From: a plasmid
DNA: 64,000 nt
Strand: one strand, 5' to 3'
Assembly (NCBI RefSeq): GCF_053078305.1
Contig: NZ_CP166875.1
Below are positions 4,690 to 30,494 of the stretch, piece after piece; the stretch's first letter is position 1, and each line of letters opens with the position of its first letter. The notes beneath the pieces are model-generated. The model worked only from the letters and a program-made list of their open reading frames with translations, was not told the origin of the DNA and did not search any database. Position numbers and translations under genes: made by a program.

Positions 4690-7410
4690 TTACATTCCAG
4701 GTGATGGTGGCTCCCATGTTTTCTCCTGCCGTAACGTATAATTATCATCATGGCTCTCCGATAAACGGGTCTGCTGTCTGATATATTCCCGGTAATACTG
4801 CTCACTGCGTTGACGGTGCAAATCCACGTCCGGACGAGTAATGGTGAAGTGTCCGTTTCCGGTTATTCCCGCTGCATTGTGCCAGGCCACCATTTCTGCA
4901 AACACATCATTAAACTGCTGGTATGAACCTTCCGGCTCAAAACCAAGCTTTCCGTTGCGGCTGAACAGAACTGGCGCAATTAAATCAAGCTTCTCTGCCA
5001 GTTCATTTCGGTCCGTGTGATGGTAGAACACAACCCGATCTCCGTAATCCGTACAGACATTTTTTCCTGTCCGCGTATCCCTGAAATGAACACTTCCATT
5101 TTTCTGAAGACGAGCTTCAAGTTTTGCAACATTATTAAAAAGTGGCGTTCCTCCGGGTTCGCAGAGTACGACACAACGATCAGCATTAGTTGTGCGTCTT
5201 TTATCCTTATTACGCGAGCGACGATCACGATAATCCCAGCCACGTAACTGCGATACTGCAGCCCTGTCTCCCTGAGCCGCCTGTTGTTCCACCCACTGCC
5301 GGTAGGACAAAGGATACCACTTACCCTCCGCAATCAGTGACAACCGCTCTTCCTTCACACTCTCCTTCAGCCTGATCAGCGCCTGCATACGCTGCACTTC
5401 CGCAATATGGTAATGCAGCTTACGCAATTGTGGATCCCGGAACTGCACACGGATATACGCCTTGCGCCGACGGCAGGCAGCATGAATTTCCCGTAACCGT
5501 TCTCCGTAACGTAAGTCGGGTTTACGCCAGTGCTCCTTCCATGCAAGATAACGCGCACGCAAATCTTCCCGCGCAGCTGCACGGGCTTCACGGCGCTCAC
5601 GACGAATCTCAGGATCGCGCCGGAAGCCTGGTTCCACTTCATCACTGGCAGCAAGTTCCGGATTGTAACGACATTCAGGCTTCACCCGTTCGAAAATATC
5701 TGCAGCCGCAATTTCAAATGGCCCGGCCTGAGGCTCGGCACGGGATAACGTCAAATCCGGGTGGATACTGCTGGCCTTCACCGGTGTCAGCTCATGATTA
5801 AACGCATCCACAATCACAAGACCATGATGCTGTTTCTGCAGCATAAGCCCTTTACGCGCAAACATCTCATGACATGCCTGCCAGCTGAAATCCCCGCCAG
5901 CTATCATCTCTTCAATCTGGCTCCTGCACTGAATAAGAGCGTATCCCCACAGACTTTCCTTATCGGAAAACAGTTCACGCTTTATAGCCCCCTGCGGACC
6001 TGTGCCCATCCTCATGCGATACCATTCGTAATCACTGACAGGCTGAGAGCCAATACTGTGTCCCCGGAATCGTTCTCCGGGAACGACCTGAGTAAAAATA
6101 TCCTTCGGTACAGGCTGCCATCCACCATCCAGATCCTGCATATAATCCAGCGTCATTAACGGCCACACACTGTCTGCACGTACTGGTGTCTGTTGTTTAT
6201 CAAATCCATCATGCAGTACCAGATGCCCGTGCTGAATCCCCATCCATAATCCCGCCTCTGCCAGAGTACGGTGTACAGCCAGGCAGCTTTTCAGTTCACC
6301 ATTGCGCGCCATTGCCGGTAAGCGTTCGGCAAAATGACGGCAGGCGTACTGTTTCAGACTCTCCGTTTCTGCCACTTTTTCCGGCCGGATATCAACGTTT
6401 ATGGCTTCCGGATCATAACGACCGGGTGTCCCCACCTGACTGAAAATATCTGTCGGTACAGGCTGATATTCCCCCAGTTTCCGCCCCAGTTTTTCAGCCG
6501 TCCATGACGGTCCGAACGAACTGAGTGCAACACCTTCCCGCGCTCTGTCCCAGCCATCCTTCACCACCAGTTCCCCTTCCTGCATCGTGATATACAGACC
6601 ATCGCTGGCCAGCCGTTTATGCAAAGATAACCAGTCCTGTGCAGGCTCTTCACGCAGCCCGGCAATCGACATCTGAGCAATATATTCCCTGAACGTCTGC
6701 TTTTTCCCGCGTCGCCAGGCATTACGGCGCTCACGTACCAGCGCTGTTTTGCGCACAATACGGTTGCCGGGTGCATGCACAAAGCAGCCATTATCCGGCG
6801 CGAATCCGTGCTTAAGTTCAAGTTCACGACATGCACGGCTGAGTTTTTCCTGGCTCCACGGAAGGCAATTGATATAGCCGGTTTCAGGGTGGACACGATT
6901 CACTGCAACATGTACATGCAGGTTATCCGTGTCTGTATGAACGGCTGCCACATACTGATGTTTTGACAGCTCAAGGGATTTCAGGGTGTGACGCACACAG
7001 TCAAAAAGCTGCTCAGAACGCGGACTTTCGTGCGCAGGCCAGGAGAGAATATAGTGAAAAACAGGATCTGTATCATCTTTGGAAAAATGAGCAAGGTCTG
7101 CTGCTTTCTGCATTTCTTCAGCCGCAGATTCAAGAGACAAACAGTTATGAAAGCAGGTCACACCATAGAAATTCACCCACTGACTGCCGTCTTTCATCAC
7201 ATCAATCAGGGAAACAAATTTTTCATTACGCAGACGTGTTGCATAATCAACAAGACGTCTGAAGCGATTCCGGTGCGGAACCTCACCTTTCACTTCCGTG
7301 TCTGGTCTGAGTTCATCTTCCGGCACATCATCCCGCACTGAGGTGTACGCAATCAGGTCTTCAAAAGAAGACTTTCCGTCGCGTCTTTTTTTCGGAATGA
7401 TGGCATTCAT
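4690..7410 (-). CDS. nikB: MOBP-type relaxase NikB
   Basis: 906 aa; N-terminal relaxase domain with HxDxxxxHxH-type motif (HTDTDNLHVHVAVNRVHPETG); directly downstream of nikA and oriT. Confidence 0.85.
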   Translation of the reverse strand: MNAIIPKKRRDGKSSFEDLIAYTSVRDDVPEDELRPDTEVKGEVPHRNRFRRLVDYATRLRNEKFVSLIDVMKDGSQWVNFYGVTCFHNCLSLESAAEEMQKAADLAHFSKDDTDPVFHYILSWPAHESPRSEQLFDCVRHTLKSLELSKHQYVAAVHTDTDNLHVHVAVNRVHPETGYINCLPWSQEKLSRACRELELKHGFAPDNGCFVHAPGNRIVRKTALVRERRNAWRRGKKQTFREYIAQMSIAGLREEPAQDWLSLHKRLASDGLYITMQEGELVVKDGWDRAREGVALSSFGPSWTAEKLGRKLGEYQPVPTDIFSQVGTPGRYDPEAINVDIRPEKVAETESLKQYACRHFAERLPAMARNGELKSCLAVHRTLAEAGLWMGIQHGHLVLHDGFDKQQTPVRADSVWPLMTLDYMQDLDGGWQPVPKDIFTQVVPGERFRGHSIGSQPVSDYEWYRMRMGTGPQGAIKRELFSDKESLWGYALIQCRSQIEEMIAGGDFSWQACHEMFARKGLMLQKQHHGLVIVDAFNHELTPVKASSIHPDLTLSRAEPQAGPFEIAAADIFERVKPECRYNPELAASDEVEPGFRRDPEIRRERREARAAAREDLRARYLAWKEHWRKPDLRYGERLREIHAACRRRKAYIRVQFRDPQLRKLHYHIAEVQRMQALIRLKESVKEERLSLIAEGKWYPLSYRQWVEQQAAQGDRAAVSQLRGWDYRDRRSRNKDKRRTTNADRCVVLCEPGGTPLFNNVAKLEARLQKNGSVHFRDTRTGKNVCTDYGDRVVFYHHTDRNELAEKLDLIAPVLFSRNGKLGFEPEGSYQQFNDVFAEMVAWHNAAGITGNGHFTITRPDVDLHRQRSEQYYREYIRQQTRLSESHDDNYTLRQEKTWEPPSPGM

Positions 7411-8407: not shown

Positions 8408-9259
8408 TCAGACTCGTGGCGGCAATGCACCAGGATAATGCCGTGCAATAATATCATTCAGTTTTTCAACAAGGTCAGAACGCTTAAAGACAATGTGTAC
8501 GGTCCCTTTCTGGTAGCCACGCACCGTAAAATATTCCCCTTCTAACAGCTTACCGACATTGTCGCCGTTCCCGAGAAATTCACCGTACTGCGCCCCGATG
8601 CTGCTCCGGAAGTCAGGAACGTTGCGCCCCTCCAGCAGATAAAACGGACGTACCAGGTCATCCAGTGCCTCCCGTCCGCTGCAGTCCAGCGTCACACGCC
8701 CGTTACTCCAGCGGTACAGCAGGTTTTCAATAATGATTTTCTTACCCAGACGGCAGGGATTATTGGTTCTGTAATCCCATGACAATTTCCGGTAGACATC
8801 AATCAGTCCCTGTTCAAATGTTTGCATCTTACTGGCATTCAGATAGCGAAAAGTTGCCAGTACATTGTCCAGGGTGATTTCAGGACAGGTGTCGCTCATC
8901 AGCTGGCTGTTCCACTCATCACGCTGGCATGAACTCATGAAGGTGTACATGCCAGTATCCGTCATCAGGCGATCCCAGATTTTCCGGTCGGCAAGACGGG
9001 TGATATTCTTTTTTGCTTCTTCCGGTTTATCCATGCATCGAACGGAGTCAGTCACGCAGTCTTCAAACCCGTAGAGAAAAATGTCACCGGAAGCATCGAG
9101 CAGAATCCTGCGCGCTGTCGCCAGGCATTCCATCGCCTGCATGAACAGTGCAATACCTTCGTTACGCTGCGCGATAATGCGGTCGATGGCCACAGACGGA
9201 ATAATATCTGTCGTGCCGGCAGTATTCAGGTCAGCAGTGGGTAAAGTCTGATTCATCAC
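8408..9259 (-). CDS. Leading-region hypothetical protein (DUF4942-like)
   Basis: 283 aa ORF in leading orientation, preceded by repeat A1; family assignment from memory only. Confidence 0.45.
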   Translation of the reverse strand: MMNQTLPTADLNTAGTTDIIPSVAIDRIIAQRNEGIALFMQAMECLATARRILLDASGDIFLYGFEDCVTDSVRCMDKPEEAKKNITRLADRKIWDRLMTDTGMYTFMSSCQRDEWNSQLMSDTCPEITLDNVLATFRYLNASKMQTFEQGLIDVYRKLSWDYRTNNPCRLGKKIIIENLLYRWSNGRVTLDCSGREALDDLVRPFYLLEGRNVPDFRSSIGAQYGEFLGNGDNVGKLLEGEYFTVRGYQKGTVHIVFKRSDLVEKLNDIIARHYPGALPPRV

Positions 9260-9284: not shown

Positions 9285-9645
9285 CGGGTCAGCCAGGTCA
9301 TTTCCCGGAGGAGCGAAGCTCCTTCTGCCGTCCGGGTCTTCGGGGATTTCCCCGCAGTGGACCTTTCCGATGGGGGCCCGTTTACCGCCTCACGGGACAG
9401 CTGTCCGGGGGCGGACGCAAAATTTTTAGCCGGGTTCATGGCTAAAAATTTTGTGGCCGGTGCATCTCACCCTGGACAGATGGAACGGGAGGGGGTTACG
9501 TCTGCCCCCTGGAAAGTCCACAGCGGGAAACAGGCCGCAGGGGTGGCGGCAGGAGGGAAGACTGCTGCGCCATCAGGCGCAGTTTCCTCACACACCGTCA
9601 GGTGTGCAGGGAGCGCAGGTCACGGCGCGACTGAAGAAAAACGAC
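9285..9645 (-). repeat. Repeat family A copy 1: GC-rich structured element (Frpo/ssi-like single-strand promoter candidate)
   Basis: Shares long near-identical blocks (ccgcagtggacctttccgatggg; cagctgtccgggggcggacgcaaaa; ggaaagtccacagcgggaaacaggccgcag) with copies at 12.7, 28.1 and 33.4 kb. Confidence 0.55.
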
Positions 9646-10117: not shown

Positions 10118-10387
10118 CTACTGCTCATCAGGAAACAGCTTTTTCAGTTCTTCACCGGAAAGTCCCGTGACCTCCTGAATCCGTTCCGGCGGCCAGCCTA
10201 TATCCCGCAGCCGGCAGGCTATTTCCCGCGCCACTTCAAGAACCCCTTGTTTAAAACCTTCTTTAAAACCTTCTTTAAAACCCTCGTCGAAACCTTTCTG
10301 TATAAGACGTTCTGCAATCGTCATGCTGTTTGCTCTGCTCCTGCTGGCAAAAAAGCCCGGGATTTTGCCGGGCTTTGTGGTTCTCAT
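10118..10387 (-). CDS. Small protein resembling the C-terminal domain of Rpn nucleases, with KEGF tandem repeats
   Basis: C-terminus (ACRLRDIGWPPERIQEVTGLSGEELKKLF) parallels the C-terminus of the adjacent Rpn protein; 12-bp tandem repeats in DNA. Confidence 0.5.
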   Translation of the reverse strand: MRTTKPGKIPGFFASRSRANSMTIAERLIQKGFDEGFKEGFKEGFKQGVLEVAREIACRLRDIGWPPERIQEVTGLSGEELKKLFPDEQ

Positions 10388-11301
10388 CAGTGAGTGATTT
10401 TCTTCAGTTCGTCATCGGAAAGTCCGGTAGCCTGCTTAATCTGCTCCGGCGTCATCCCCATTTTCTGAAGCTGGCACGCAATAGCCAGGGCTTTTTCAAG
10501 CGCTCCTTCCATGCGTCCTTCCATCCTGCCTTCCTGGCGACCTTTTTGCTCAAGACGTTCTGCGATAGTCATCAGTTTATCCTCATGCTGCGGCAGACGC
10601 TCAGCCAGCGCCCGCATAAATTCCGGTGATACAGAGTCCCCTGCGTTAACGATGTAATGAATCAGAACACGCACCTGTTCATCTGAAATTTCCACCATGA
10701 CCTGCGGGAGTTTGTCCAGCAGCTCCATCATGTCACGATGGCGGATATGCTTCATCAGCAGCGTCAGTGCGGCCATCCGGCGATGGTTCATGATTTCATT
10801 GTCATCAACGACAGTGATATCAACCAGCGGAAACGGCTTTGTGTATATTTTAGCCGCAAGAGCCGGATTCTCAAAACAGCCCAGCCAGTTCATGCTGTAC
10901 GGGTACGGGCTGCGCTCACCGTGATAGAACAGCACCGGAATCACCAGTGGCAACGTTTTGTGCTGCTCCAGATGTCTCTGCATCGCCGCCACACTGTAAC
11001 GTAACATGCGAAAAGGCATGTACAGATTTTCGGTGCTCTGGTGCTCGATGAGCGTATAAACATAGCCGTCTTCACCCCCGGTGGTTTTCACGCTCCAGAG
11101 GATATCGCTGGCGTACTGATGCAGGTCCGGCTCTACAAAGGTGGCGGGTTCCAGCTTCAGCGTGGACAGGTCGCACAACTGCCGGTACTCCGCAGGAAGA
11201 TGCAGTTCCAGAAAATCTCTGGCGACGTCGGGATTCGCCAGGAACGACCGGAACGCGGCATCATGCGGCGTGGGCGTTGTGGTGTTTTTCTTCTTACTCA
11301 C
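10387..11301 (-). CDS. Rpn-family recombination-promoting nuclease (YhgA-like PD-(D/E)xK)
   Basis: 304 aa; conserved Rpn N-terminal nuclease region (FLANPDVARDFLELHLP...TLIEHQS) recognised from memory. Confidence 0.7.
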   Translation of the reverse strand: MSKKKNTTTPTPHDAAFRSFLANPDVARDFLELHLPAEYRQLCDLSTLKLEPATFVEPDLHQYASDILWSVKTTGGEDGYVYTLIEHQSTENLYMPFRMLRYSVAAMQRHLEQHKTLPLVIPVLFYHGERSPYPYSMNWLGCFENPALAAKIYTKPFPLVDITVVDDNEIMNHRRMAALTLLMKHIRHRDMMELLDKLPQVMVEISDEQVRVLIHYIVNAGDSVSPEFMRALAERLPQHEDKLMTIAERLEQKGRQEGRMEGRMEGALEKALAIACQLQKMGMTPEQIKQATGLSDDELKKITH

Positions 11302-11762
11302 GGTTCCTCCATCAAATCAGCAGCATCGCAGCAATCATCGCCCAAATCCCCACAACCGAGAGGACAGCAATTGCGTTCAAAGCCATGACAACAATAGCCG
11401 CGTTCTGAGTCACGGCGTATTTCTTCAGCAATCTCTTCTGCGGAAAGGTAATCAAACTCCTCACGGGCCAGTTCCAGGACCAGTAGATGTTGTTCTGTCG
11501 GCAATGTGGCCACAAAATTATCAATAGCAGCACTCAAACGTCGCTGATATAGCTCATAAACAAGACCACAACGGGGCATTAGTTCTTCGGATAATAGTTC
11601 CAGTTTTGAGCGAATTCTGTCAGCGTTGAAAGTGACTTCATCAAAAGACATATGAAAAGCTTTGTCAGTATCAAAACAAGACTTCATTGTTATCTCCAGC
11701 CCTCCCGGGCCCTGAATGAAAGAGAATCTGTTTCCCTTTTCTGTTTTTTGTGGAGACACCAT
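11298..11762 (-). CDS. Hypothetical leading-region protein with Cys-rich C-terminus
   Basis: ORF in leading orientation; no recognised domain; true start may be internal. Confidence 0.35.
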   Translation of the reverse strand: MVSPQKTEKGNRFSFIQGPGGLEITMKSCFDTDKAFHMSFDEVTFNADRIRSKLELLSEELMPRCGLVYELYQRRLSAAIDNFVATLPTEQHLLVLELAREEFDYLSAEEIAEEIRRDSERGYCCHGFERNCCPLGCGDLGDDCCDAADLMEEP

Positions 11763-11863
11763 GCAACACAGACGTCGTGATGTTTTTCATCTTGCTCACG
11801 GTTCCTCCTGGTAAAGTACCTGAACACATCCTGCCACCTGCACAGGCAGACGGCAGGGGTTAA

Positions 11864-12130
11864 TCAGTGACAGACCCGTTCAATTTCAAGCGCGCGGAGC
11901 AGGTGGCCCCATTCGCTGACTTTCATGGCGGGGATACGTACCCGCTTCTGCTCACTGCAGCGTCTGGCGATATGACCGCCCATCGCCAGGACGTCCGGGT
12001 TAATCTCATCCGGTGCCAGTTCCTGGCGTCTGAAGCGGGTATGGCGGTGCAGGGGTTTATTCTCCCGCAGGCACTCTTCACGCAGACGCTTTACATACTC
12101 GGCGGTTGCGAAGATAATTGATGGTCTCAT
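11864..12130 (-). CDS. Hypothetical small leading-region protein
   Basis: Start refined to the internal ATG (MRPSIIF...); no recognised domain. Confidence 0.3.
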   Translation of the reverse strand: MRPSIIFATAEYVKRLREECLRENKPLHRHTRFRRQELAPDEINPDVLAMGGHIARRCSEQKRVRIPAMKVSEWGHLLRALEIERVCH

Positions 12131-12222
12131 GGCATAATCTCCATAGTTAGTGAATGAGATGCCGGACTTCCGTACGGGGAAGCGCCGGCGGAGAGAGGCA
12201 GGGTTTATCGCCCTGCTTTTTT

Positions 12223-12657
12223 TCATTCCGGACAGCGACGCAGTGCCAGCGCGAGCGCTTTCATCTTCCAGCCTTCCGGCGTGCGGTACATCACCTTCCA
12301 GTAGCCGTCGATGAACACATAATGGAAGCGCACCTCTTCAGTGCTTTCCGTGGCGATGGCCTCCCTGAAAGAACGGTACTCACGCGCCTCACTGTCCATC
12401 CGGAAACCACTGTCACGTCCGTAATAAGCCGTCACACCGTCCACCGGGTTCTGAAGCGTATGCCCGGCGGGTTTGTCGCAACGGGGACCGAGGCAACGGA
12501 TATCACCGTGTTCAACCAGGGCTTCGGCCTGCTGACCGGTGGCATAGTGGGTATGCAGGATGCGACCGTTCCAGGTCGGCTCACCGTGCAGGTGGCAGTA
12601 AACGGTACGGAACACCCCGTCGCGGCAAAAAACGGAAATCGTGCTGCTGACTGTCAT
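12223..12657 (-). CDS. Hypothetical leading-region protein (about 144 aa)
   Basis: Start refined to ATG at MTVSSTISVF; lies directly downstream of repeat A2. Confidence 0.4.
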   Translation of the reverse strand: MTVSSTISVFCRDGVFRTVYCHLHGEPTWNGRILHTHYATGQQAEALVEHGDIRCLGPRCDKPAGHTLQNPVDGVTAYYGRDSGFRMDSEAREYRSFREAIATESTEEVRFHYVFIDGYWKVMYRTPEGWKMKALALALRRCPE

Positions 12658-12689
12658 GAAAACGTCTCCTTCTGCTGAATCAGGTCGCC

Positions 12690-13210
12690 GGGCCGACCGA
12701 TTGCTCCCCCGGAGGGGCGAAAGCCCCTTCTGCCGTCCACTTCTTCGGGGTTTCTCCCCGCAGTGGACCTTTCCGATGGGGCAGCGACAGCCACGGCACG
12801 GGGCAGTTGTCCGGGGGCAGACGCAAAAGTTTTTGACGCTTGCGGCAAAAAGTTTTGTGGCTGGTACATCTCCCCCCTGGACGGCTGACACGTGTTGTGG
12901 CCGCTTCAGCCCCCGGAAAGTCCACAGCGGGAAACAGGCCGCAGGGGTGGCGGCGGAAGGGCAGACAACTGCGCCATCAGGCGCAGTTTCCTTACACACC
13001 GTCAGGTGTGCAGGGAGCGCAGGTCACGGCGCGACAGAGGCGGCGCGACCGGAACGGTCGCTGCAAGCCTGGTTTTTCAGACATCGGACCGTAGCGGCAG
13101 CCCGAAACCGCGCCAGCGGGTTCGGCGGAGACTGGCGGGTGCGCCAGCAGCTGCCTGTCGGAGTCGGGCCTGACGACCGGATGCCGCCAGGCAGCCGGGA
13201 GCCGAAGGTG
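12690..13210 (-). repeat. Repeat family A copy 2 (Frpo/ssi-like candidate)
   Basis: Shares conserved blocks with copies A1, A3, A4. Confidence 0.55.
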
Positions 13211-13388
13211 TCCCCGCCTCCGGAAATCAGAACAACAGAAACGACATAACAGAAAAATGCCTCACACCATGACGGGCAGGAAGGGCAGCGCCGCAGGCGC
13301 GGCCCTCCTGCATTTCAGGCAGGCGTAAGCCTGCCAGGGTTTTCCGGCGGCCTGGCAGGCCATACCCCCGCCGGAGCGGGGGAGTAAA

Positions 13389-13889
13389 TCACCGACGGAA
13401 CACATGACCGTCAATAAAGGTGAAGGAGTCCAGGAATAAATCCCGCGCATACGCCTCATAGTCAAAATAGAGCGCCACCGTCTCCGGCACGTCAGCCAGC
13501 AGGCCGGTATCACTGGCGAACTCAACCGCAAAAGCCTCCTCACTGTCAGCCTCGCCCCACCAGGCATCGCGGAAGCTGTCAAAATCCGTCTCACCGGTAT
13601 CATCCACCCAGAGACGATAAGCCTCTTCGCAGCCTTCATCCCGTGCCCGGCGGAAGCCTTCAACCCAGGCCCAGTTGATATGACATTCAGAGGCCATATT
13701 CCCCGGGAATCCCTCATAATCCTGAAACATCAGTTCAGGATCGGCTTCATCCTGGTGAAGAGCACGGCAGGCGGCGAAAAAGTCGCGCTCATCATCAAAC
13801 GTGGTCAGGTCAAACCAGCGTCCGGCGATGCTTCCACAGTTGTATTTGTGCCAGGTTCCAACGTATACAGCAGGTGCAACAACAGACAT
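13389..13889 (-). CDS. ardA: Antirestriction protein ArdA
   Basis: 166 aa from ATG at MSVVAPAVYVGTWHKYNCGSIAGRWFDLTTFDD; acidic C-terminal half; RBS-like sequence upstream. Confidence 0.9.
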   Translation of the reverse strand: MSVVAPAVYVGTWHKYNCGSIAGRWFDLTTFDDERDFFAACRALHQDEADPELMFQDYEGFPGNMASECHINWAWVEGFRRARDEGCEEAYRLWVDDTGETDFDSFRDAWWGEADSEEAFAVEFASDTGLLADVPETVALYFDYEAYARDLFLDSFTFIDGHVFRR

Positions 13890-13904
13890 TCCCGAATCCT
13901 CCAT

Positions 13905-14100
13905 AGTCACATGTTCTGCGACACCGGGCGGTGCCGTGCCTCCATCTTTGCCGGGCCTGCAGGGATGCAAGGGCGCAAGGAAAGCCGCAGCCCGACGCGC
14001 ACGGCTGACGGGAGTTGGAGGGTGAGACCGCGAAATCTGAGCGGGTGAACGACCGGAAAATCACGGCAGACGGGAAGGAGGGACCGGGTGACCGCAGCGG
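13905..14100 (-). repeat. Repeat family B copy 1 (upstream leader element of ardA)
   Basis: About 190 bp near-identical to 35140-35335, which sits upstream of the KlcA-like gene. Confidence 0.6.
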
Positions 14101-14302
14101 TTCATCTTACCTTGCAACCCGCCCGCAGAAGCCCGGCTACGATGGAGGCACGGCACAGCCCGCACACGACGCTGAGGCCACATAACTGAAAACCCACAAG
14201 GCCATGCCCCGCATGGCCGGGTAAAGCGGAGCCTGCGGCGACATCCTTTTGCTCTTTCCGGGGACCGGCTGGAAAAGGCGGAGATTTTCCCCGCCAGCGT
14301 CA

Positions 14303-15073
14303 TCATTTCCGGATTTTCGCCAGTGCATCCGCCATGCTGCGGATTTCAGTCCGGGCTTCCAGGACCACCTCCCGCAGAATATCCCGGTCAAACCAGCGAC
14401 GGGACGGTTCATCAGGTATACGCAGCACATCGCAGGCCAGCCCACTGGACAGGATATGCTCCACACACTCACTGACCAGATACATTTCCACCGACGAAAA
14501 ACGAGCGCCCCGGTTCAGGATGGCATCGAGCACCACGGGCAGGTTTTCGTCGTCTTCATCGAGCCAGCAGGGGTGATCGCTTTCCTTCACAACCAGACGA
14601 AAGCGGCGCGTCTGGCGGGTCAGCAACGTCTGACCGGTGGTAGTCAACGCCGCACGGATACGCCGCGCATCTTCTGCCACCCGGCAACTGACACTGCATA
14701 CTGCATCGCGCACCGCATCAAGAACTGCCCTGATTTCGTCTTCGGTCAGCCATTCTCCGGCATACGGGAAAGACACCTGCGTTCCGTCTGCCGGAAGTAC
14801 CGGCAGCGACTGCCACTGACTGCCGGACAGAACAAGTTCCGCCCCGGTTCCGGTCAGTTTCTGAATGGCAGAGGCCAGGAGCGGCGGCAGTACGCCGCCG
14901 TGACGGTTGATAAGTAACGTCGCCAGCCGGGGCGCATCCAGCCGCACGTAAATGCTGATCCAGCCCGGATACTTCGGGTTCCGCTGGTCAACATCCGTTT
15001 CTTCCGGCCAGCCCTGCGCCAGCAACAGGTTGCTGGCGTGGCGATAAATCAGTGCATTCAGCGTTTCATTCAT
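14303..15073 (-). CDS. Hypothetical leading-region protein (256 aa)
   Basis: ORF in leading orientation; no recognised domain. Confidence 0.4.
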
Positions 15074-15117
15074 AATTCATGAACTCCCTGTATCGCCGCC
15101 CGAAGGCGGCGATAACA

Positions 15118-15552
15118 TCAGTCGTTTTCGTGTGTGTTGTTTTTCAGCAGGGTGCGGGCCTGATTAACCACCTCCTGACGGCGGGTGACGCATTCCGGGA
15201 CGGCGAGGCCATGATCCCGGGCGGCCCATTCACGTTTCCACAATGCCTGCTCAGCGGTCTGAATCAGGGACGCCAGCAGTTCAGCAGGGACGGTCACCTG
15301 GCGGTTTTCGCTCACGTTATTGATGATCTCCATCACCGCAGCGGAAGAAATACCGGACTCAATCCGCTGTTCTTCCGGGATGTCCTCCAGGCGTGCCAGG
15401 ACGGTCCTGATTTCATGACCGGTCAGAGAAATTTCCATACCGTCAGCCAGTGCCTGAATCTCTTCCGGGGACCAGACAACCAGCATCAGCGGCGTGTTCT
15501 CCGTATACTGCGCTGCCAGCTCACGGCAGAGCGTTTCGCATGTTCCGTACAT
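15118..15552 (-). CDS. Hypothetical leading-region protein, paralog of 34229-34648 (DUF1380-like)
   Basis: Shared start MY(G/C)T and shared motif RxVTVPAxLL with the second copy. Confidence 0.45.
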   Translation of the reverse strand: MYGTCETLCRELAAQYTENTPLMLVVWSPEEIQALADGMEISLTGHEIRTVLARLEDIPEEQRIESGISSAAVMEIINNVSENRQVTVPAELLASLIQTAEQALWKREWAARDHGLAVPECVTRRQEVVNQARTLLKNNTHEND

Positions 15553-15565
15553 TCTCGTCTCCTTC

Positions 15566-15787
15566 TCAATCTTTAAAGCACGCATCCAGTTCCAGAATTT
15601 CGGTATATGCCTCCATCAGGAGGCGGTTTGCGCGAAACAACGTCTGACGCACCAGACGTTCCGGCAGGGTGTCAGCATTAAAGCTGTACCGCCGCTCCAT
15701 CTCATTCATGGTTGTACGCAGGTCGCACATGGCATTGGCCACATCCGCCACTTCGGCGCGAAGTTTTTCGTGTCCGGCATAGTTCAT
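15566..15787 (-). CDS. Hypothetical small protein
   Basis: 73 aa ORF tightly packed between neighbouring genes. Confidence 0.3.
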   Translation of the reverse strand: MNYAGHEKLRAEVADVANAMCDLRTTMNEMERRYSFNADTLPERLVRQTLFRANRLLMEAYTEILELDACFKD

Positions 15788-16471
15788 TTACGCAGCCTCC
15801 GGCATAAACCAGTCATCATTCGCGGCCCCCTGCTGCATGGCCCGTTGTACGGCGGCAAGGCGTTGCTGCCCGGCACGGTGATACTGCTCAAGCAGCTCGA
15901 TACCGATATACCGGCGTCCGGACTGGAAGGCGGCCACGCAGGTTGAGCCGCTGCCTGCAAACGGGTCCAGCACAATTGCGTTCGGGTGTGTGAAGCTCTC
16001 AATCAGCGGTTGCAGGCTGGTAACGGGCTTTTCCGTCGGGTGATGACGATTGCCTGAATATTTCCAGCCCAGCACGTCCGGCAGCGGGTTTTGTGGCAGA
16101 CGTGGACGGCCTTTTGCCAGGATGTAGGCACATTCGTGGCGATAGCCCACATATGCGGCCTTCGATGTGTAGTTTTTGGTGAAGACCAGGTGACCAACAA
16201 CGCTGAATCCCGCATTTTTCCAGGCAGACATAAAACGATCGACGCGATTCCAGCCATAGAAGCTCACCATTAACGCGTCTTTTTTGAGTACGCGGTACAT
16301 CTCATTACAGGCCGGTTGCAGCCATTCATCGGTTTTATCGCCGGCAATGGTACGCCCCTGACGGTCACGAAAACCGACGAGGTACGGCGGGTCGGTGAGG
16401 ATGAAATCAATGGCGTTATCAGGGATACGGGCCATAACATCGATGCAGTTACCGAGGACAAAACGGGACAT
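15788..16471 (-). CDS. Orphan N6-adenine DNA methyltransferase (beta class)
   Basis: DPPY catalytic motif near N-terminus and FxGxG SAM-binding motif (DPFAGSGST) near C-terminus; no adjacent restriction gene. Confidence 0.8.
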   Translation of the reverse strand: MSRFVLGNCIDVMARIPDNAIDFILTDPPYLVGFRDRQGRTIAGDKTDEWLQPACNEMYRVLKKDALMVSFYGWNRVDRFMSAWKNAGFSVVGHLVFTKNYTSKAAYVGYRHECAYILAKGRPRLPQNPLPDVLGWKYSGNRHHPTEKPVTSLQPLIESFTHPNAIVLDPFAGSGSTCVAAFQSGRRYIGIELLEQYHRAGQQRLAAVQRAMQQGAANDDWFMPEAA

Positions 16472-16479
16472 ACCAAACT

Positions 16480-16850
16480 CCTTCTCTTACAGAGGGCACC
16501 GGGAGGGCCCCCCTGTGGTGCCCGTTCCCCGCTGCCTGTGGGCTGTTCACCGCGTCCGGTAACGGGTCAGGCCGACCGTGGAATACCGCAGCCGTCGTCT
16601 TTTTGACGGCAAGGTTATGCCGCGAAAGCGGCTTGAAGGGCGTTCATCAGAAAAGGGCGACGGGCTGGCGTACACTGTCACCGGTGCCAGCCGGGAGCGG
16701 TAAAAGCGCCCGTCCCGTGCCCGGCCGGACGCGGGACACTGACCACAGGCAGCGTTTATGCCGCGCCGCGTCAGCCGGCGCAGTAAAAAGAGGAGCACGG
16801 CGACATCCTTTGTCGGAAAAGAAACGGGCGGTTGCCCGCCCGTCTCCGTC
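16480..16850 (-). repeat. Repeat family C copy 1 (about 330 bp GC-rich structured element)
   Basis: Near-identical to 17795-18125. Confidence 0.6.
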
Positions 16851-16855
16851 ATACT

Positions 16856-17782
16856 TCATCCGCCATAATGCGCCACCTTGTCGACTATCCACGCAGGTCC
16901 GGTGACTTCCGGCAGCTCATCGTCATCTGTCGGGGAAGACCATTCCAGTTCCCCCCACAGCACATCAACGAGCTCTCCGCGCTCATACAACTGCCAGCCA
17001 CAGAAATTGCAGCCCTGTTCGGCGTACCAGTGCTCCAGCGTGCAGCCGAAACGGCGGCTTAATTCTGCAACAACGTCGCTTTCCGGCTGACACCACGGCG
17101 TGTCGAAATCTACCTGAATGAAGTTTTCCCCCTGACTGCTGATATTCAGGTCATACCCACAAGGCCACTTCACGCCATACCGTTCTGTATACCAGTGATA
17201 TGCAGAAGGAACACCGTTCAGAACACCGCCGTTAAAGCCATTCACTTCAATATCCAGGCGGGTCGGCAAAACCGTCAGCAGGTCAAACGGCATGGTTTTT
17301 TCCGGCAGTACGTTGTCACACAGACGGTTCCACCACACCGATACATCCTCGTTACCCCAGATGTCACACCAGTCACCTCTTTTTGCGGTGAAATGCACAG
17401 TGATAGTTTCCCTGACATCATCCGGTAACTCTTCCCAGCGACGCTGTCCAGTACCGCTCTGCAGCCAGAGTTCATGCAGCATCAGGCAGTTTTGCTCATC
17501 CAGCAGTACACCGTTCTGCAGGTGTGTCAGCCAGCGGGTGAACGCGATATTTTCCGGTGATACAGCACCACGTCCGGCAGCCGTCACTCCGGGGCACTGC
17601 TCAGAGCGGATATTTTCAGTGATCTGCAGAAGTCCGGCACTTCCGGCCAGAAACAGCTGAATACCTTCATTTGTGGCGCGGCGATAAAACGGTGTGACTG
17701 CACCGCTGGCCAGTCGTTTAATCTCAGCAATCTGTGCCGGTTCACCAGAAAAATACATACGATTCGAGCACCAGTTTGGCAT
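16856..17782 (-). CDS. Hypothetical leading-region protein (DUF1281-like)
   Basis: Start refined to ATG at MPNWCSNRMYF; flanked on both sides by repeat family C. Confidence 0.45.
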   Translation of the reverse strand: MPNWCSNRMYFSGEPAQIAEIKRLASGAVTPFYRRATNEGIQLFLAGSAGLLQITENIRSEQCPGVTAAGRGAVSPENIAFTRWLTHLQNGVLLDEQNCLMLHELWLQSGTGQRRWEELPDDVRETITVHFTAKRGDWCDIWGNEDVSVWWNRLCDNVLPEKTMPFDLLTVLPTRLDIEVNGFNGGVLNGVPSAYHWYTERYGVKWPCGYDLNISSQGENFIQVDFDTPWCQPESDVVAELSRRFGCTLEHWYAEQGCNFCGWQLYERGELVDVLWGELEWSSPTDDDELPEVTGPAWIVDKVAHYGG

Positions 17783-17794
17783 GGGAATTCTCCT

Positions 17795-18125
17795 CACAGG
17801 AGCACCGGGAGGGAGCCCCTGTGGCGCCCGTTCCCCGCTGCCTGTGGGCTGTTCACCGCGTCCGGTAACGGGTCAGGCCGACCGTGGAATACCGCAGCCG
17901 TCGTCTGTTTGACGGCAAGGTTATGCCGCGAAAGCGGCTTGAAGGGCGTTCATCAGAAAAGGGCGACGGGCTGGCGTACACTATCACCGACGCCAGCCGG
18001 GAGCGGTAAAAGCGCCCGTCCCGTGCCCGCCGGACGCGGGACACTGACCACAGGCAGCGTTTATGCCGCGCCGCGTCAGCCGGCGCAGTAAAAAGAGGAG
18101 CACGGCGACATCCTTTTCCCCTGAA
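17795..18125 (-). repeat. Repeat family C copy 2
   Basis: Near-identical to 16480-16850. Confidence 0.6.
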
Positions 18126-18139
18126 CATCCGTCAGCCTT

Positions 18140-18380
18140 TCTCTGCGGCAAGATCAATCCTTAACAGAAAAAAAACCAACAAGCACCCACATAAAAAACA
18201 AAAAACCCAAGCAACACCCACACAAACAAAAAAAACACCCAGAAAACACCCAAAGACAAACAACAATAAAGTAATGAAACCCATAAAACACCCAAAAAAA
18301 GACAAAAAAGATTAAATAGCACTTGAACGCCACCAAAAAAATACTATTATGGGTATAGACACCCAAACGACACCCAAAAG
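18140..18380. other. A/C-rich iterated array (CACCC-type motifs), parC-like centromere candidate
   Basis: More than 10 spaced (A)CACCCA motifs in a very A/C-biased stretch directly upstream of the ParM-like gene. Confidence 0.5.
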
Positions 18381-18388: not shown

Positions 18389-19360
18389 ATGATTAAGATA
18401 TTCTGTGATGATGGTTCTACAGCGGTTAAGCTGGCATGGTTTGAAAACGGGGAACTAAAAACCCTCATTAGTCACAATTCTTTCAAGGAAGGCTGGAACA
18501 CATCAGGATTTGGCAGTGAGAAAACTTATAATTACTTAGTCGATGGAGAGAAATATGCGTTTGATACACATAACCCATCAGCAATAGTCACAACCAATAT
18601 TGAGTTTCAATATAGTGTAGAAAATCGTCTCGCTGTACATCACGCACTACTACAAACAGGAATGGAGCCTGGGGATGTAGAGCTTTGGGTTACATTACCT
18701 GTATCTGAATATTTCACTACAGATATGCAAGAGAATTCGGATAACATAAGAAAAAAAATAGAAAACCTGAAAAAAGAAATTACACTGAATAAAGGCAGCG
18801 TATTTTCAATCAAGAAAGTTCATGTATTACCCGAGTCTCTACCTGCAGCGTTGACCTCTCTCGAAGAGGATAAAGTCAGTGATCTTGAAACGTCCCTTGT
18901 CGTCGATCTTGGTGGAACAACTCTTGATTGTGGCGCTATAGCTGGCAGATATAAAAATGTAACACAAGTATCCGGAGAACCTGGTCTTGGCGTAACTCTG
19001 GTAACAACGGCGACAATGAATGCCCTGAAACAGGCAGGAACGCATACCAGCTACTATATTGCAGATCAACTGGTTAGAAACAGAAATGCTGATGATTTAT
19101 TCGAAATTGTTGTTAATGACAGCAGTAAAATAGATGATGTGAAATCAGTAATTGAAAACAGTATTACAAGACTTTCAGACAGAGTTATAAATCATTTACA
19201 CTCGTACAAAGGGATAAATCGTATATACATGACTGGTGGTGGTGCGGAACTAATCTACCCTGCAATAAAAAAAGCATTCCCCTTATTAAAGGATAAAGTA
19301 AAAATTTTACCAGATGCGCAATTAGCCCTTGTTATTTCTATTGCTGAAATAAATCGATAA
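18389..19360 (+). CDS. parM: Actin-like segregation ATPase (ParM/StbA family)
   Basis: 323 aa; actin-fold phosphate motifs (DDGST; DLGGTTLD; MTGGGAE); RBS aagagga upstream. Confidence 0.75.
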   Translation: MIKIFCDDGSTAVKLAWFENGELKTLISHNSFKEGWNTSGFGSEKTYNYLVDGEKYAFDTHNPSAIVTTNIEFQYSVENRLAVHHALLQTGMEPGDVELWVTLPVSEYFTTDMQENSDNIRKKIENLKKEITLNKGSVFSIKKVHVLPESLPAALTSLEEDKVSDLETSLVVDLGGTTLDCGAIAGRYKNVTQVSGEPGLGVTLVTTATMNALKQAGTHTSYYIADQLVRNRNADDLFEIVVNDSSKIDDVKSVIENSITRLSDRVINHLHSYKGINRIYMTGGGAELIYPAIKKAFPLLKDKVKILPDAQLALVISIAEINR

Positions 19361-19923
19361 TGAGGTACAGGATGAGTGATGAACGTCGTAAATTATGGCT
19401 ATACTTATATCCTGATGAGCCACAGCAAAAATCCGCAATAGAAACCATTGAAGAAATACCTCAAAGACAACGTTCTGATTTCTTCAGAGATAGTATTGTT
19501 GCAGGTATTGCATTATCAAAACTCGATAAACGATTACCTGCACTTGTATCTATGTTACTACAGCAAGATAGTAATATAGATACTCTTGTACGTATTTTAA
19601 AAATACTATTCCCCAAGCTTGATATTGACTCAACGGAAGATAAATCTACACTCTGTGCCGTTGCTTGGCAAAAAAGATGTCGGGATGAATTACAACAAGG
19701 CACACCATGGTCTGCCTGGTTTGCGATTAGTGAGGATGAATATAATCATCATCTTAATCATCCAGAATCAAACAGTCAGGTACGTGCATTATGGGCTTAT
19801 GATGAAAACGAGCAGAAAAAGGATATACAGGATAAAGAGAGAACGCCCTTTCCGGAGGCCAACACCAATACAAGTTCAGAAACATTGAGTAATGCTAAAA
19901 AATTATTTGGTAATTCAAATTAA
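19360..19923 (+). CDS. Partition adaptor (ParR/StbB-like)
   Basis: Translationally coupled to the ParM-like gene; assignment by position only. Confidence 0.45.
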   Translation: MRYRMSDERRKLWLYLYPDEPQQKSAIETIEEIPQRQRSDFFRDSIVAGIALSKLDKRLPALVSMLLQQDSNIDTLVRILKILFPKLDIDSTEDKSTLCAVAWQKRCRDELQQGTPWSAWFAISEDEYNHHLNHPESNSQVRALWAYDENEQKKDIQDKERTPFPEANTNTSSETLSNAKKLFGNSN

Positions 19924-20033: not shown

Positions 20034-21560
20034 TCACTTTTTTCTCCGTCGTCTGCCACGCGCTCTGCTGCCTGTATTTTTTTCCCGGGATGCCGGCTCA
20101 CTCTGCAATGCCGGGGGAGGTACCTGTTTCAGGAGCTGGCGCAGCACACTGTTGAGGATCAGCGTCCGCCGAGCCCGTGTGGCAGCCACATAGAGCAGGT
20201 TGAGTTCATCCCGCAGTTTCTCTTCAAATTCCTGCACATTGTCCGTTCCCGGCTGCTCAAGCTCCTGAAAATCCTCATGCAGCCTCACTGTGTCCCATTC
20301 CAGGCCTTTGGCCCTGTGCACCGTGGTGACAGTCACGGCAGCAGCCTTTTCGTCACGGACCTCATATTTTCGCAGCGTGGCCACATGTTCCGGCAGCGGC
20401 GAAAACTTCTGAATGATAGCCACTGACTGCAGCATTTCCGCGTCCCGGCTTGCCTTTGCCGTCGCCTCATAGTCAGAGAACGACTCCCACGCAGCAAAGC
20501 GAGCCGGCTCCCGGATTTTTTCCGTCATTCCCACAGAAAACCACCACAGATCCAGCAGGCGGGCAACCGGCCAGGCATTCATACCGTTGATCCAGTATGT
20601 TTTCTGCTTCCTCCGGGCCGCGTGAAGCGCAGCACCAATCACGCCCATCACTGTCCGGCACAGCACCGCACAGTGAGGCATATTCCTCTCGGGTTTCAGC
20701 AACAGACGGTCATCACCGCCAAGCCCACAGACTTTTTTCGTCTCCCCGTCCAGAGCCAGCACAGCATTTGCCACATCTGCCACACAGGGACCGAAACGGA
20801 AACTGCCGGTAAGCCACAGCCTGTCTGCCGTGGCCAGAGAGGGGGTATTCAGCGCATCCACGGCACCCCGGAAGCGATAAATCTGCTGATGTGGATCACC
20901 CACCATCACCAGCGTTCCACGGTGGCGCAGGACCAGGTCGGAGATCACCGGACTGGCGTCCTGGGCTTCATCAAACAGGATTTCATCGTACTTTGCGGAC
21001 AGATCCGGCTGCGAAAGCTGGTACAGCTTCAGATACAGATCATGAACGACCGGAAAGTCATCACTGCGGTCGCACATTCTTTGCCAGAGACGCACGGCCA
21101 GCGGCAGCACCTCTGCTGCGCGCAGTGGCGGCCTGGCACGGACATGCACCTCAGACAACGTCGTGTCCGCACTGTTCATGAAAGCCTGTAGGGTTTCCCT
21201 GACGGCCGCAGCCAACGGCCACTGGCGCAGTGAAAGCGCCCCGGCGATATCAGTAATGCCCAGGGAAGGCACGAGACGGTGGGAGTAATGTCGTCCAAAT
21301 TCCGGCCACGCCAGCTGATGTGCAGTCCGGCAACAGACATTCACCGGGAAGCGTGCCTGAGCCTCCTCCCGGACAGACCGGTTGAATGCGATATAGAGCA
21401 TACGGCGTTCAGGCCGGGCCTGCGCATAAGCCACCAGTGTGGCTGTTTTGCCGGTGCCGGCAAAAGCCCTGACAACCAGTCGCTGTCCCTGCCAGTTAAT
21501 GACAGCCTGTTGTTCAGCGGTCGGAGCGTGACGGATTTTCCTGACCGGGTGCTGAGTCAT
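20034..21560 (-). CDS. UvrD/Rep-family superfamily I helicase-like protein
   Basis: Walker A (AGTGKT), Walker B-like (LFDEAQD) and UvrD C-terminal motif (TVHRAKGLEWDTV); start uncertain. Confidence 0.6.
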   Translation of the reverse strand: MTQHPVRKIRHAPTAEQQAVINWQGQRLVVRAFAGTGKTATLVAYAQARPERRMLYIAFNRSVREEAQARFPVNVCCRTAHQLAWPEFGRHYSHRLVPSLGITDIAGALSLRQWPLAAAVRETLQAFMNSADTTLSEVHVRARPPLRAAEVLPLAVRLWQRMCDRSDDFPVVHDLYLKLYQLSQPDLSAKYDEILFDEAQDASPVISDLVLRHRGTLVMVGDPHQQIYRFRGAVDALNTPSLATADRLWLTGSFRFGPCVADVANAVLALDGETKKVCGLGGDDRLLLKPERNMPHCAVLCRTVMGVIGAALHAARRKQKTYWINGMNAWPVARLLDLWWFSVGMTEKIREPARFAAWESFSDYEATAKASRDAEMLQSVAIIQKFSPLPEHVATLRKYEVRDEKAAAVTVTTVHRAKGLEWDTVRLHEDFQELEQPGTDNVQEFEEKLRDELNLLYVAATRARRTLILNSVLRQLLKQVPPPALQSEPASREKNTGSRARGRRRRKK

Positions 21561-23217: not shown

Positions 23218-23373
23218 TTTTAGTCTCACTTATCGTTTTTGACACTGCATGGTATCATAATGTACAAAATACGATTTTTGAAACCTGCTTTTATGCTGTT
23301 TTAGACAGGTATCAGATATCTTAATATTTGATACTAGCCATATTTAACAAATATTTAGCATTTTGGTAAATGT

Positions 23374-27997: not shown

Positions 27998-28089
27998 CTG
28001 TTGAGTTTCGGGAGCCGCGGTTTTGACGTTTTGCGGGGACCTGCCTTTTGTTCCCTCCGGTATTCACCATCACCTGTTTGAGAACCTTC

Positions 28090-30443: not shown

Positions 30444-30494
30444 GGTATCTCCCTTGCTGCCGCCCCGTCTCCGGCGGGGCGGTGTGGTTGTTCA

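What the first reader, a model, noticed from the sequence alone, without database searches (positions are those of the whole stretch)
11298..17782. Cluster of uncharacterised leading-region genes beside ardA and an orphan methyltransferase
Seen in sequence: at least six ORFs with no motif I can recognise (11298-11762, 11864-12130, 12223-12657, 14303-15073, 15566-15787, 16856-17782) sit in the same orientation as ardA and the orphan N6-adenine methyltransferase, several directly downstream of the repeat elements. Established knowledge: leading regions are enriched in anti-restriction and other anti-defence genes. Inference: some of these are undescribed anti-defence or establishment functions.
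Basis: inference. Interest (0 to 1): 0.6.

Follow-up and report, generated by a model that had tools for sequence, protein, structure and literature searches.

The report
Early-entry plasmid genes of unknown function
These are real, conserved genes that IncI/IncF-type resistance plasmids probably switch on in the first minutes after entering a new cell, next to known anti-restriction genes; the families are already catalogued, but their function is still unknown.

Summary
All six ORFs exist on the minus strand at the stated coordinates and look like real genes. A seventh, DUF1380 at 15118-15552, was missed. The block is the leading region of an IncI1-type plasmid. It is 93-96% identical to pESBL and is present in more than 5,000 PLSDB plasmids.

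The ORFs fall into operons behind three kinds of single-stranded-DNA promoter hairpin. In pESBL these promoters were shown by RNA-seq and 5' RACE to fire only in fresh transconjugants.
- Class 3 drives DUF1281.
- Class 3 drives M.EcoGIX methylase, the 73-aa gene, DUF1380 and YchA.
- Class 2 drives ardA.
- Class 1 (Frpo/ssi) drives the 144-aa, 88-aa and 129-aa genes and Rpn.

The families are already listed among the most abundant uncharacterised leading-region families (Samuel et al. 2024). In pESBL, four of them (DUF1281, 73-aa, DUF1380, YchA) are dispensable for transfer into E. coli K-12.

New details:
- The 144-aa protein, named 'PndC' in databases, belongs to a large family shared with jumbo and T4-like phages.
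- YchA keeps the order DUF1281, YchA, then KlcA or ArdA even at 23-31% identity.
- The 129-aa protein resembles IncN CcgAII.

An anti-defence role is plausible but untested, and the finding is a known open question.

The parts
17788..18116 (-). Class-3 (M.EcoGIX-type) ssDNA-promoter hairpin, second copy, upstream of DUF1281. It folds in the + (transferred) strand and would drive minus-strand transcription.
   Evidence: 96% identical to 16482-16811 and to the pESBL M.EcoGIX promoter region. ssDNA fold z = -4.2. pESBL has no such copy upstream of its DUF1281 gene.
16856..17782 (-). DUF1281 / Api92-like protein, 308 aa, acidic (pI 4.5). Equivalent to pESBL Hp8.
   Evidence: Pfam DUF1281 8e-46 and DUF1281_C 4e-14. 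PDB 2IJR 'hypothetical protein api92' 1e-46. pN/pS 0.12-0.27. pI.
16482..16811 (-). Class-3 ssDNA-promoter hairpin upstream of the methyltransferase operon.
   Evidence: 97% identical to the pESBL region 5' of M.EcoGIX, whose start site was mapped by 5' RACE (PMC12672017). Fold z = -5.8. The ORF annotated inside it (16547-16852) has pN/pS about 2.
15788..16471 (-). M.EcoGIX-type ssDNA-specific N6-adenine methyltransferase. This is a known function.
   Evidence: NF010253 5e-151. PMC4288162 and PMC7736820.
15566..15787 (-). 73-aa protein, equivalent to pESBL Hp9. It starts directly after the methylase stop codon.
   Evidence: phrog_4830 5e-34. 34% identical over full length to phage N15 gp50. 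pN/pS 0.26. This allele is only 79% identical in DNA to those of two close relatives (L001, L008).
15118..15552 (-). DUF1380 protein, 144 aa, acidic (pI 4.7). Equivalent to pESBL Hp10.
   Evidence: Pfam PF07128 1.4e-50. pN/pS 0.27. In-frame DUF1380::YchA fusions occur naturally.
14303..15073 (-). YchA-like protein, 256 aa. Equivalent to pESBL Hp11.
13897..14248 (-). Class-2 ssDNA-promoter hairpin upstream of ardA. It is a hybrid of the pESBL klcA-type and ardA-type copies.
   Evidence: 87-88.5% identical to both pESBL class-2 regions. The two pESBL-collinear blocks overlap here. Fold z = -4.5.
13389..13889 (-). ArdA anti-restriction protein. This is a known function.
   Evidence: phrog_2059 'anti-restriction protein' 2e-29. 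RefSeq annotation of the homologue.
12708..13208 (-). Class-1 (Frpo/ssi) ssDNA-promoter hairpin upstream of the 144-aa gene.
   Evidence: Homologous to copies at 9304-9634 and at 33407-33852, the latter upstream of ssb. 94% identical to the pESBL region between ardA and the 144-aa gene. Fold z = -11.6.
12223..12657 (-). 144-aa protein, labelled 'PndC' in databases. It belongs to a large uncharacterised family shared by phages and plasmids.
11864..12130 (-). 88-aa basic protein (pI 9.9), found only in plasmids.
   Evidence: At least 5,000 plasmids carry a homologue, about half at 40-47% identity. No phage, Pfam or PDB match. Probably Samuel family 1, YdaB/YdfB, inferred from its position.
11298..11687 (-). 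129-aa acidic (pI 4.4) CcgAII-like protein with a Cys-rich C-terminus. The longest ORF runs to 11762. Its stop overlaps the Rpn start by 4 nt.
   Evidence: 57% identical to IncN CcgAII over residues 26-106; 1,319 plasmids carry a homologue. RBS and coordinates. pI.
10387..11301 (-). Rpn-family recombination-promoting nuclease, the last large gene of the class-1 operon.
   Evidence: TIGR01784 2.5e-52.
9304..9634 (-). Class-1 ssDNA-promoter copy upstream of the DUF4942 (YdiA-like) gene at 8408-9259. Included as context.
   Evidence: DUF4942 annotation of the homologue.

Best explanation
The cluster is the conserved early-entry ('zygotic induction') gene set of an IncI1-type leading region.

Proposed mechanism:
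- During conjugation the + strand of the window enters the recipient 5' first from oriT, which lies just left of 8 kb.
- While single-stranded, it folds into long hairpins at about 17.8-18.1 kb and 16.5-16.8 kb (class 3), 13.9-14.25 kb (class 2), and 12.7-13.2 kb and 9.3-9.6 kb (class 1, Frpo/ssi).
- The hairpins mimic double-stranded promoters. Host RNA polymerase transcribes leftwards from them, giving five units: DUF1281; M.EcoGIX, 73-aa, DUF1380 and YchA; ardA; 144-aa, 88-aa, 129-aa and Rpn; DUF4942.
- Complementary-strand synthesis removes the hairpins and the genes fall silent.

What the products do:
- M.EcoGIX methylates the incoming single strand, and ArdA blocks type I restriction. 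Both are known.
- I infer that the uncharacterised products act in the same short window as accessory counter-defence or establishment proteins.
- The acidic ones (DUF1281, DUF1380, the CcgAII-like protein) most likely work by binding and blocking host proteins.
- The 144-aa protein may carry out a host-takeover function shared with large lytic phages.

The operon layout and its equivalence to pESBL are shown here. Early expression is taken from the pESBL homologues. The protein functions are inferred.
For: - Context. A MOBP relaxase and IncI transfer genes lie to the left. The region is collinear with pESBL at 93-96% identity and with IncI1/B/O and IncI-gamma plasmids.
- Orientation. All genes are on the minus strand, so the transferred strand is the template.
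- Hairpins. Every intergenic region ahead of an operon folds as ssDNA far better than shuffled sequence, with z from -4.2 to -11.6. These regions are repeated in the window, including upstream of ssb.
- Experimental counterpart. The regions are 88-97% identical to pESBL regions whose transconjugant-specific start sites were mapped by 5' RACE. The pESBL operons were induced up to about 500-fold at 15 min (PMC12672017).
- No alternative promoters. There is no excess of ordinary sigma-70 promoter matches in the double-stranded sequence.
- Tight gene spacing. The methylase stop abuts the 73-aa start, a 13-nt gap precedes DUF1380, and the 129-aa stop overlaps the Rpn start by 4 nt.
- Purifying selection. 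pN/pS is 0.10-0.27.
- Enrichment. The families are significantly enriched in leading regions (Samuel 2024 Supplementary Table 1).
- Synteny. YchA homologues at only 23-31% identity still sit between DUF1281 and KlcA or ArdA, beside umuDC.
- Phage link. The 144-aa family also occurs in blocks of small genes annotated only as hypothetical in jumbo and T4-like phages.
- Charge. Several products are small and acidic, like ArdA.
Against: - No protein matched any known anti-defence family. The structure models gave no functional analogue.
- In pESBL TnSeq, Hp8-Hp11 were fully dispensable for maintenance and for transfer into E. coli K-12.
- Early induction was measured in pESBL, not in this plasmid.
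- In pESBL the DUF1281 gene is not among the genes preceded by a mapped ssDNA promoter. Its early expression here rests only on the extra class-3 copy.
- The DUF1380::YchA fusions could be by-products of deletions, as the YchA::SSB fusion appears to be.
Confidence: 0.6

Rival explanations
1. The genes are early-expressed, but they serve DNA processing of the incoming strand rather than defence evasion. Possible roles are cofactors or regulators of the ssDNA methyltransferase (73-aa, DUF1380, YchA), or factors that time complementary-strand synthesis, circularisation or recombination (88-aa basic protein, Rpn partner).
For: - The 73-aa gene, DUF1380 and YchA share an operon with M.EcoGIX.
- M.EcoGIX activity was lost during purification and appeared to depend on association with PolI. 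That leaves room for partner proteins.
- A 73-aa homologue lies about 0.7 kb upstream of an adenine methylase gene in phage N15.
- In-frame DUF1380::YchA fusions exist.
- The 88-aa protein is strongly basic.
- The 129-aa gene is translationally coupled to an Rpn nuclease.
- Leading-region hairpins and UvrD control conversion timing.
Against: - Distant YchA homologues occur without any methylase in the locus and instead keep KlcA or ArdA as neighbour.
- The genes were dispensable for transfer into K-12. That would be unexpected for core DNA-processing factors.
- The N15 methylase shares only the SAM-binding motif with M.EcoGIX.
Confidence: 0.25
2. The genes act in conflicts between mobile elements, or as addiction or selfish cargo. 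Examples would be toxin-antitoxin-like or exclusion functions linked to Rpn. On this view they sit in the leading region only by linkage.
For: - The class-1 operon ends in an Rpn nuclease, followed by a free-standing ORF that resembles the Rpn C-terminus.
- Toxin-antitoxin genes are over-represented in leading regions.
- The region is highly mosaic, with deletions and duplications at the repeats.
Against: - The families keep the T-strand-template orientation and promoter linkage across thousands of plasmids.
- pN/pS is low.
- There were no matches to toxin or antitoxin families.
- No maintenance phenotype appeared in TnSeq.
Confidence: 0.1
3. Some of the ORFs are not genes but chance reading frames in GC-rich repeat-containing DNA.
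For: - The region is 56-61% GC and full of long overlapping ORFs on both strands.
- One RefSeq-annotated ORF inside the class-3 hairpin (16547-16852) behaves as non-coding, with pN/pS about 2.
- The N-terminal extensions 11688-11762 and 12131-12226 lack ribosome-binding sites.
Against: - All six listed ORFs have protein-level homologues at 23-57% identity in other replicons or phages.
- They show low pN/pS where it is measurable.
- Two of them give confident AF2 models.
Confidence: 0.03

Closest known systems
pESBL (IncI1, E. coli O104:H4) leading-region operons: Hp8, M.EcoGIX, Hp9, Hp10, Hp11, and the genes between ardA and Rpn
   Same: - Same genes in the same order and orientation, at 93-96% DNA identity.
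- Same three classes of ssDNA promoter.
- Early induction and start sites were shown experimentally there (PMC12672017).
- TnSeq dispensability was shown there (PMC4288162).
   Different: - The window lacks the roughly 6.6 kb klcA-ssb-parB-psiB-psiA segment, through a junction inside the class-2 hairpin.
- It has a second class-3 copy upstream of DUF1281.
- It carries a diverged 73-aa allele.
Uncharacterised leading-region families of Samuel et al. 2024 (Nature 635:186): family 10 YchA, 7 DUF1380, 11 YfcA, 27 DUF1281, 1 YdaB/YdfB, and the 'PndC' family
   Same: - Same proteins by name, position relative to oriT and T-strand orientation.
- Same hypothesis of an anti-defence role.
   Different: - That study filed the 144-aa family as Hok/Sok-related 'PndC' and did not analyse it structurally. 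Here it proves to be a large family shared with phages, with no hok partner.
- My matches to family numbers rest on names and positions, not on sequences from that study.
IncN (pKM101/R46) leading-region ccg genes, specifically CcgAII
   Same: The 129-aa protein is 57% identical to CcgAII over residues 26-106. Both are leading-region genes of unknown function near ardA (the location in IncN is from my own knowledge of Delver and Belogurov 1997).
   Different: - It has a different N-terminus and a Cys-rich acidic tail.
- Here it is translationally coupled to an Rpn nuclease and sits behind an Frpo-type hairpin rather than a CUP repeat. The CUP element was not tested.
Api92 (PDB 2IJR) / DUF1281
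   Same: Full-length sequence homology, E = 1e-46 over residues 3-274, and the same two Pfam domains.
   Different: Api92 is a structural-genomics entry with no assigned function, so the match names the fold but not the activity.
ArdA, KlcA/ArdB and Ocr-type protein inhibitors of restriction enzymes
   Same: Early expression from the entering DNA, small size and strong negative charge for DUF1281, DUF1380 and the 129-aa protein, and immediate neighbourhood to ArdA or KlcA.
   Different: No sequence or fold similarity was detected for the proteins tested. DNA or protein mimicry is an analogy, not a result.

Membership tests
Leading-region ssDNA-promoter (Frpo/ssi) early regulon, or 'anti-defence island' | Located within the first roughly 30 ORFs on the leading side of oriT. 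| tested here: met
   The relaxase is at 4690-7410 and the genes lie at 8-18 kb. The layout is collinear with pESBL from nikA/oriT onward.
Leading-region ssDNA-promoter (Frpo/ssi) early regulon, or 'anti-defence island' | Genes oriented so that the transferred strand is the template. | tested here: met
   All are on the minus strand and point toward oriT.
Leading-region ssDNA-promoter (Frpo/ssi) early regulon, or 'anti-defence island' | A hairpin-forming ssDNA promoter lies upstream of each operon. | tested here: met
   Fold z-scores are -4.2 to -11.6. The regions are 88-97% identical to pESBL promoters mapped by 5' RACE (PMC12672017). The -35 and -10 boxes were not located here.
Leading-region ssDNA-promoter (Frpo/ssi) early regulon, or 'anti-defence island' | Transient expression in the transconjugant before the complementary strand is made. 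| not testable with these tools
   Shown for the pESBL operons that start at ardA, M.EcoGIX, klcA and ssi1-3. Not shown for this plasmid, nor for DUF1281.
Anti-defence protein (any known family) | Homology to a described anti-restriction, anti-CRISPR or other anti-defence protein, or a demonstrated inhibition of a defence system. | tested here: not met
   Only ArdA and the methylase match. The six ORFs and DUF1380 give no such hit in PHROGs, PADLOC, NCBIfam, Pfam or PDB. No dedicated anti-defence HMM library was available.
PndC / Mok (hok-sok type post-segregational killing), for the 144-aa protein | The reading frame overlaps and is translationally coupled to a Hok/PndA toxin gene. | tested here: not met
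   The only Hok-like peptide in the window is at about 28.9 kb, and none lies near 12.2-12.7 kb. The family has at least 6,958 clusters, many in lytic phages.
ArdA, for YchA (flagged 'ArdA?' in Samuel 2024 Supplementary Table 1) | A match to PF07275 or to the ArdA fold. | tested here: not met
DUF1281 / Api92-like | PF06924 plus the PF18406 domain. | tested here: met
   8e-46 and 4e-14. PDB 2IJR 1e-46.
DUF1380 | A full-length match to PF07128. | tested here: met
   1.4e-50, covering model positions 1-137 of 137.
CcgAII (IncN) | Sequence homology to CcgAII. | tested here: met
   57% identity, E = 3e-22, over residues 26-106.
CcgAII (IncN) | Control by a CUP repeat. | not tested
   No CUP sequence was available for comparison. 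Here the gene lies in a class-1 Frpo-type operon.

The most novel reading that the evidence does not exclude
At least one of these proteins is a new kind of counter-defence factor whose fold has no solved relative. Two candidates stand out:
- The 144-aa protein mislabelled 'PndC'. Its family is shared by IncI/IncF leading regions and by jumbo, T4-like and Caulobacter phages, and it has nearly invariant Ser, Tyr, His and Asp positions that could form a binding or catalytic site.
- The DUF1281 and YchA pair, which stays directly upstream of KlcA or ArdA across very divergent plasmids.
Probability: 0.35. Interest if true: 0.65.

Novelty: already known. Interest (0 to 1): 0.3.

Why it matters
IncI1 and IncF plasmids are major carriers of ESBL and other resistance genes. 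Their success depends on surviving the first minutes in a new host. These genes are among the most widespread leading-region genes and are still without a function. Working out what they do would show which host barriers limit plasmid spread, and might offer ways to block establishment.

This analysis adds a prioritised and corrected candidate list:
- the operon and promoter assignment for each gene;
- the phage link of the 144-aa family;
- the conserved order DUF1281, YchA, then an anti-restriction gene.

The existence of the genes, their early expression in close relatives and the anti-defence hypothesis are all already published.

Full report
**Observation.** The six ORFs are all present on the minus strand at the stated coordinates, in the same orientation as ardA (13389-13889) and the methyltransferase (15788-16471). 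Three corrections apply.
- The first ORF most likely starts at 11687, giving 129 aa. That start has a GGAGG ribosome-binding site and matches the RefSeq call.
- A seventh gene, DUF1380 at 15118-15552, lies between two of the listed ORFs.
- An ORF that RefSeq annotates at 16547-16852 lies inside a repeat and evolves like non-coding DNA, with pN/pS about 2. The real genes with enough divergence give 0.10-0.27.

The 129-aa and 88-aa genes were too similar in the plasmids compared for that test. They do have protein homologues at 35-57% identity elsewhere.

**Where it is.** To the left are IncI-type transfer genes and a MOBP relaxase at 4690-7410. The 7.2-kb query matches at least 5,000 PLSDB plasmids, mostly Escherichia, Klebsiella, Salmonella and Shigella. 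The best match is an IncI1/B/O plasmid at 97%. The region is collinear with the well-studied IncI1 plasmid pESBL:
- window 8000-14248 matches at 96%;
- window 13897-17798 matches at 93%.

The two blocks overlap inside a repeat upstream of ardA. The window therefore lacks the roughly 6.6 kb klcA-ssb-parB-psiB-psiA segment that separates YchA from ardA in pESBL. A separate hok-psiA-parB-ssb block sits at 28-35 kb between two Tn3-family copies.

**Promoters and operons.** The + strand is the transferred strand and is the template for all these genes. Each intergenic region ahead of an operon folds as single-stranded DNA into a long hairpin far more stable than shuffled controls.

| Region | z-score |
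|---|---|
| 17783-18160 | -4.2 |
| 16472-16855 | -5.8 |
| 13890-14302 | -4.5 |
| 12658-13388 | -11.6 |

Within the window the elements form three families:
- 12708-13208, 9304-9634 and 33407-33852. The last lies upstream of ssb, which is the classic Frpo/ssi position.
- 13897-14099 and 35127-35334.
- 16482-16811 and 17788-18116.

They are 88-97% identical to the pESBL regions that Wen et al. classify as class 1 (ssi1-3), class 2 (5' of klcA and ardA) and class 3 (5' of M.EcoGIX). In that work the start sites were mapped by 5' RACE in transconjugants, and the operons were induced up to about 500-fold at 15 min (PMC12672017).

The resulting units are:
- class 3, then DUF1281;
- class 3, then M.EcoGIX, 73-aa, DUF1380 and YchA;
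- class 2, then ardA;
- class 1, then 144-aa, 88-aa, 129-aa and Rpn;
- class 1, then DUF4942.

Ordinary sigma-70 promoter matches are no more frequent than in shuffled sequence. pESBL has no class-3 copy upstream of DUF1281, so early expression of that gene here is an inference.

**What is already known.**
- The methyltransferase is the M.EcoGIX type. [quoted passage not shown]
- In pESBL TnSeq, Hp8 (DUF1281), Hp9 (73 aa), Hp10 (DUF1380) and Hp11 (YchA) were scored 1.00 non-essential for maintenance and for transfer into K-12.
- Samuel et al. 2024 list YchA, DUF1380, YfcA, DUF1281, YdaB/YdfB, 'PndC', DUF4942 and Rpn among the largest families enriched in leading regions. They propose that many are anti-defence genes.
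- I found no paper that assigns a function to any of them.

**The individual proteins.**
- **DUF1281 (308 aa).** Matches PF06924 and PF18406, and the structural-genomics entry 2IJR (Api92), which has no assigned function. It is acidic, pI 4.5.
- **DUF1380 (144 aa).** pI 4.7. It has only the DUF label.
- **73-aa protein.** 34% identical over its whole length to gp50 of the linear phage-plasmids N15 and phiKO2.
- **YchA (256 aa).**
  - It has no Pfam family, even among divergent members.
  - Only 181 representative clusters match it among 1.84 billion proteins, and it has no phage homologue.
  - Homologues at 23-31% identity are found in the order DUF1281, sometimes a 156-aa gene, YchA, then KlcA or ArdA, next to umuDC. 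This synteny is the strongest association evidence obtained.
- **144-aa protein.**
  - It is named 'PndC' in NCBI and UniProt. The only Hok-like peptide in the window is about 16 kb away, so the name is misleading here.
  - It has homologues at 27-45% identity in jumbo phages (GAP32, BF, CBB), KVP40-like vibriophages, T4-like cyanophages (gene cluster T4-GC_66) and Caulobacter phages. There they lie in runs of small genes annotated only as hypothetical.
  - A profile search finds at least 6,958 clusters.
  - Several Ser, Tyr, His and Asp positions are nearly invariant.
- **88-aa protein.** Basic (pI 9.9), found only in plasmids, and present in at least 5,000 plasmids.
- **129-aa protein.** 57% identical to IncN CcgAII, acidic (pI 4.4), with a Cys-rich tail. 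Its stop overlaps the start of the Rpn nuclease gene.

**Interpretation.** The layout, the orientation, the hairpins and the near-identity to experimentally characterised pESBL operons make it very likely that these are early-entry genes. Expression in this plasmid is inferred, not shown.

The idea that their products help the plasmid survive host defences fits three things: the company they keep, the phage link of one family, and the acidic character of three others. No homology or structural analogy supports it directly. The K-12 TnSeq result fits a conditional role but does not demonstrate one.

A role in processing the incoming strand is the main rival, for example as partners of the methylase. 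It is weakened by the distant YchA loci, which lack a methylase. DUF1380::YchA in-frame fusions exist in several lineages. A YchA::SSB deletion fusion in 82 contigs shows that fusions in this repeat-rich region can be accidental.

**Verdict.** The finding restates a published open question for a gene set that is nearly identical in thousands of plasmids. Interest is modest. The best candidates for follow-up are the 144-aa family shared with phages and the DUF1281-YchA pair.

Noticed in passing
window 13897-14248: The two pESBL-collinear blocks overlap inside the class-2 hairpin upstream of ardA. This plasmid therefore appears to have lost the roughly 6.6 kb klcA-ssb-parB-psiB-psiA segment by recombination between the two class-2 promoter repeats. 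The ardA promoter here would be a hybrid of the two copies.
   Followed up: partly
window 17788-18116: A second copy of the class-3 (M.EcoGIX-type) promoter element lies upstream of DUF1281. pESBL has no such copy there. To the right the sequence switches to low-GC ParM-like genes on the + strand (18389-19923).
   Followed up: partly
window 16547-16852: A 101-aa ORF that RefSeq annotates as a hypothetical protein (for example WP_012615291) lies entirely within the class-3 hairpin. Its pN/pS is about 2, so it is probably not a gene.
   Followed up: yes
window 12223-12999: The database name 'post-segregation killing protein PndC' for the 144-aa protein looks like a misnomer. The 251-aa UniProt version runs through the Frpo-type hairpin. 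There is no hok or pndA partner here, and the family is widespread in lytic phages.
   Followed up: yes
window 10118-10387 and 11757-11808: An 89-aa ORF directly downstream of the Rpn gene resembles the Rpn C-terminus. It may be a free-standing small Rpn-type protein or the remnant of a second Rpn gene. A 52-nt copy of the Rpn ribosome-binding site and 5' end also lies upstream of the 129-aa gene.
   Followed up: no
window 15566-15787: The 73-aa gene is only 79% identical in DNA to its counterparts in two close relatives (L001, L008), while the flanking genes are 93-99.8% identical. pN/pS is 0.26. This suggests allele replacement or mosaic recombination at this one gene.
   Followed up: partly
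window 20034-21620: A 528-aa UvrD/Rep-like helicase gene lies on the same strand just beyond the leading-region block, followed by a ProQ/FinO-like gene at 21557-22183. This is notable because host UvrD is reported to help convert the incoming strand to double-stranded DNA.
   Followed up: no
window 22636-26412 and 43126-46902; 28000-35400: Two ORF pairs of identical lengths (197 aa and 1012 aa) lie about 20.5 kb apart. The first pair matches a serine recombinase and a Tn3-family transposase; the second pair was not checked. Between them lies a second leading-region-type block with hok, psiA, a ParB-like gene, ssb, and class-1 and class-2 hairpin copies.
   Followed up: partly
proteins P0071, P0104, P0032 (375 aa) and P0095 (417 aa), from related plasmids: In-frame DUF1380::YchA fusions, joined at a shared ARNLL motif, occur in several diverged lineages. 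A YchA::SSB fusion occurs in 82 contigs. Both show frequent deletions in this region.
   Followed up: partly
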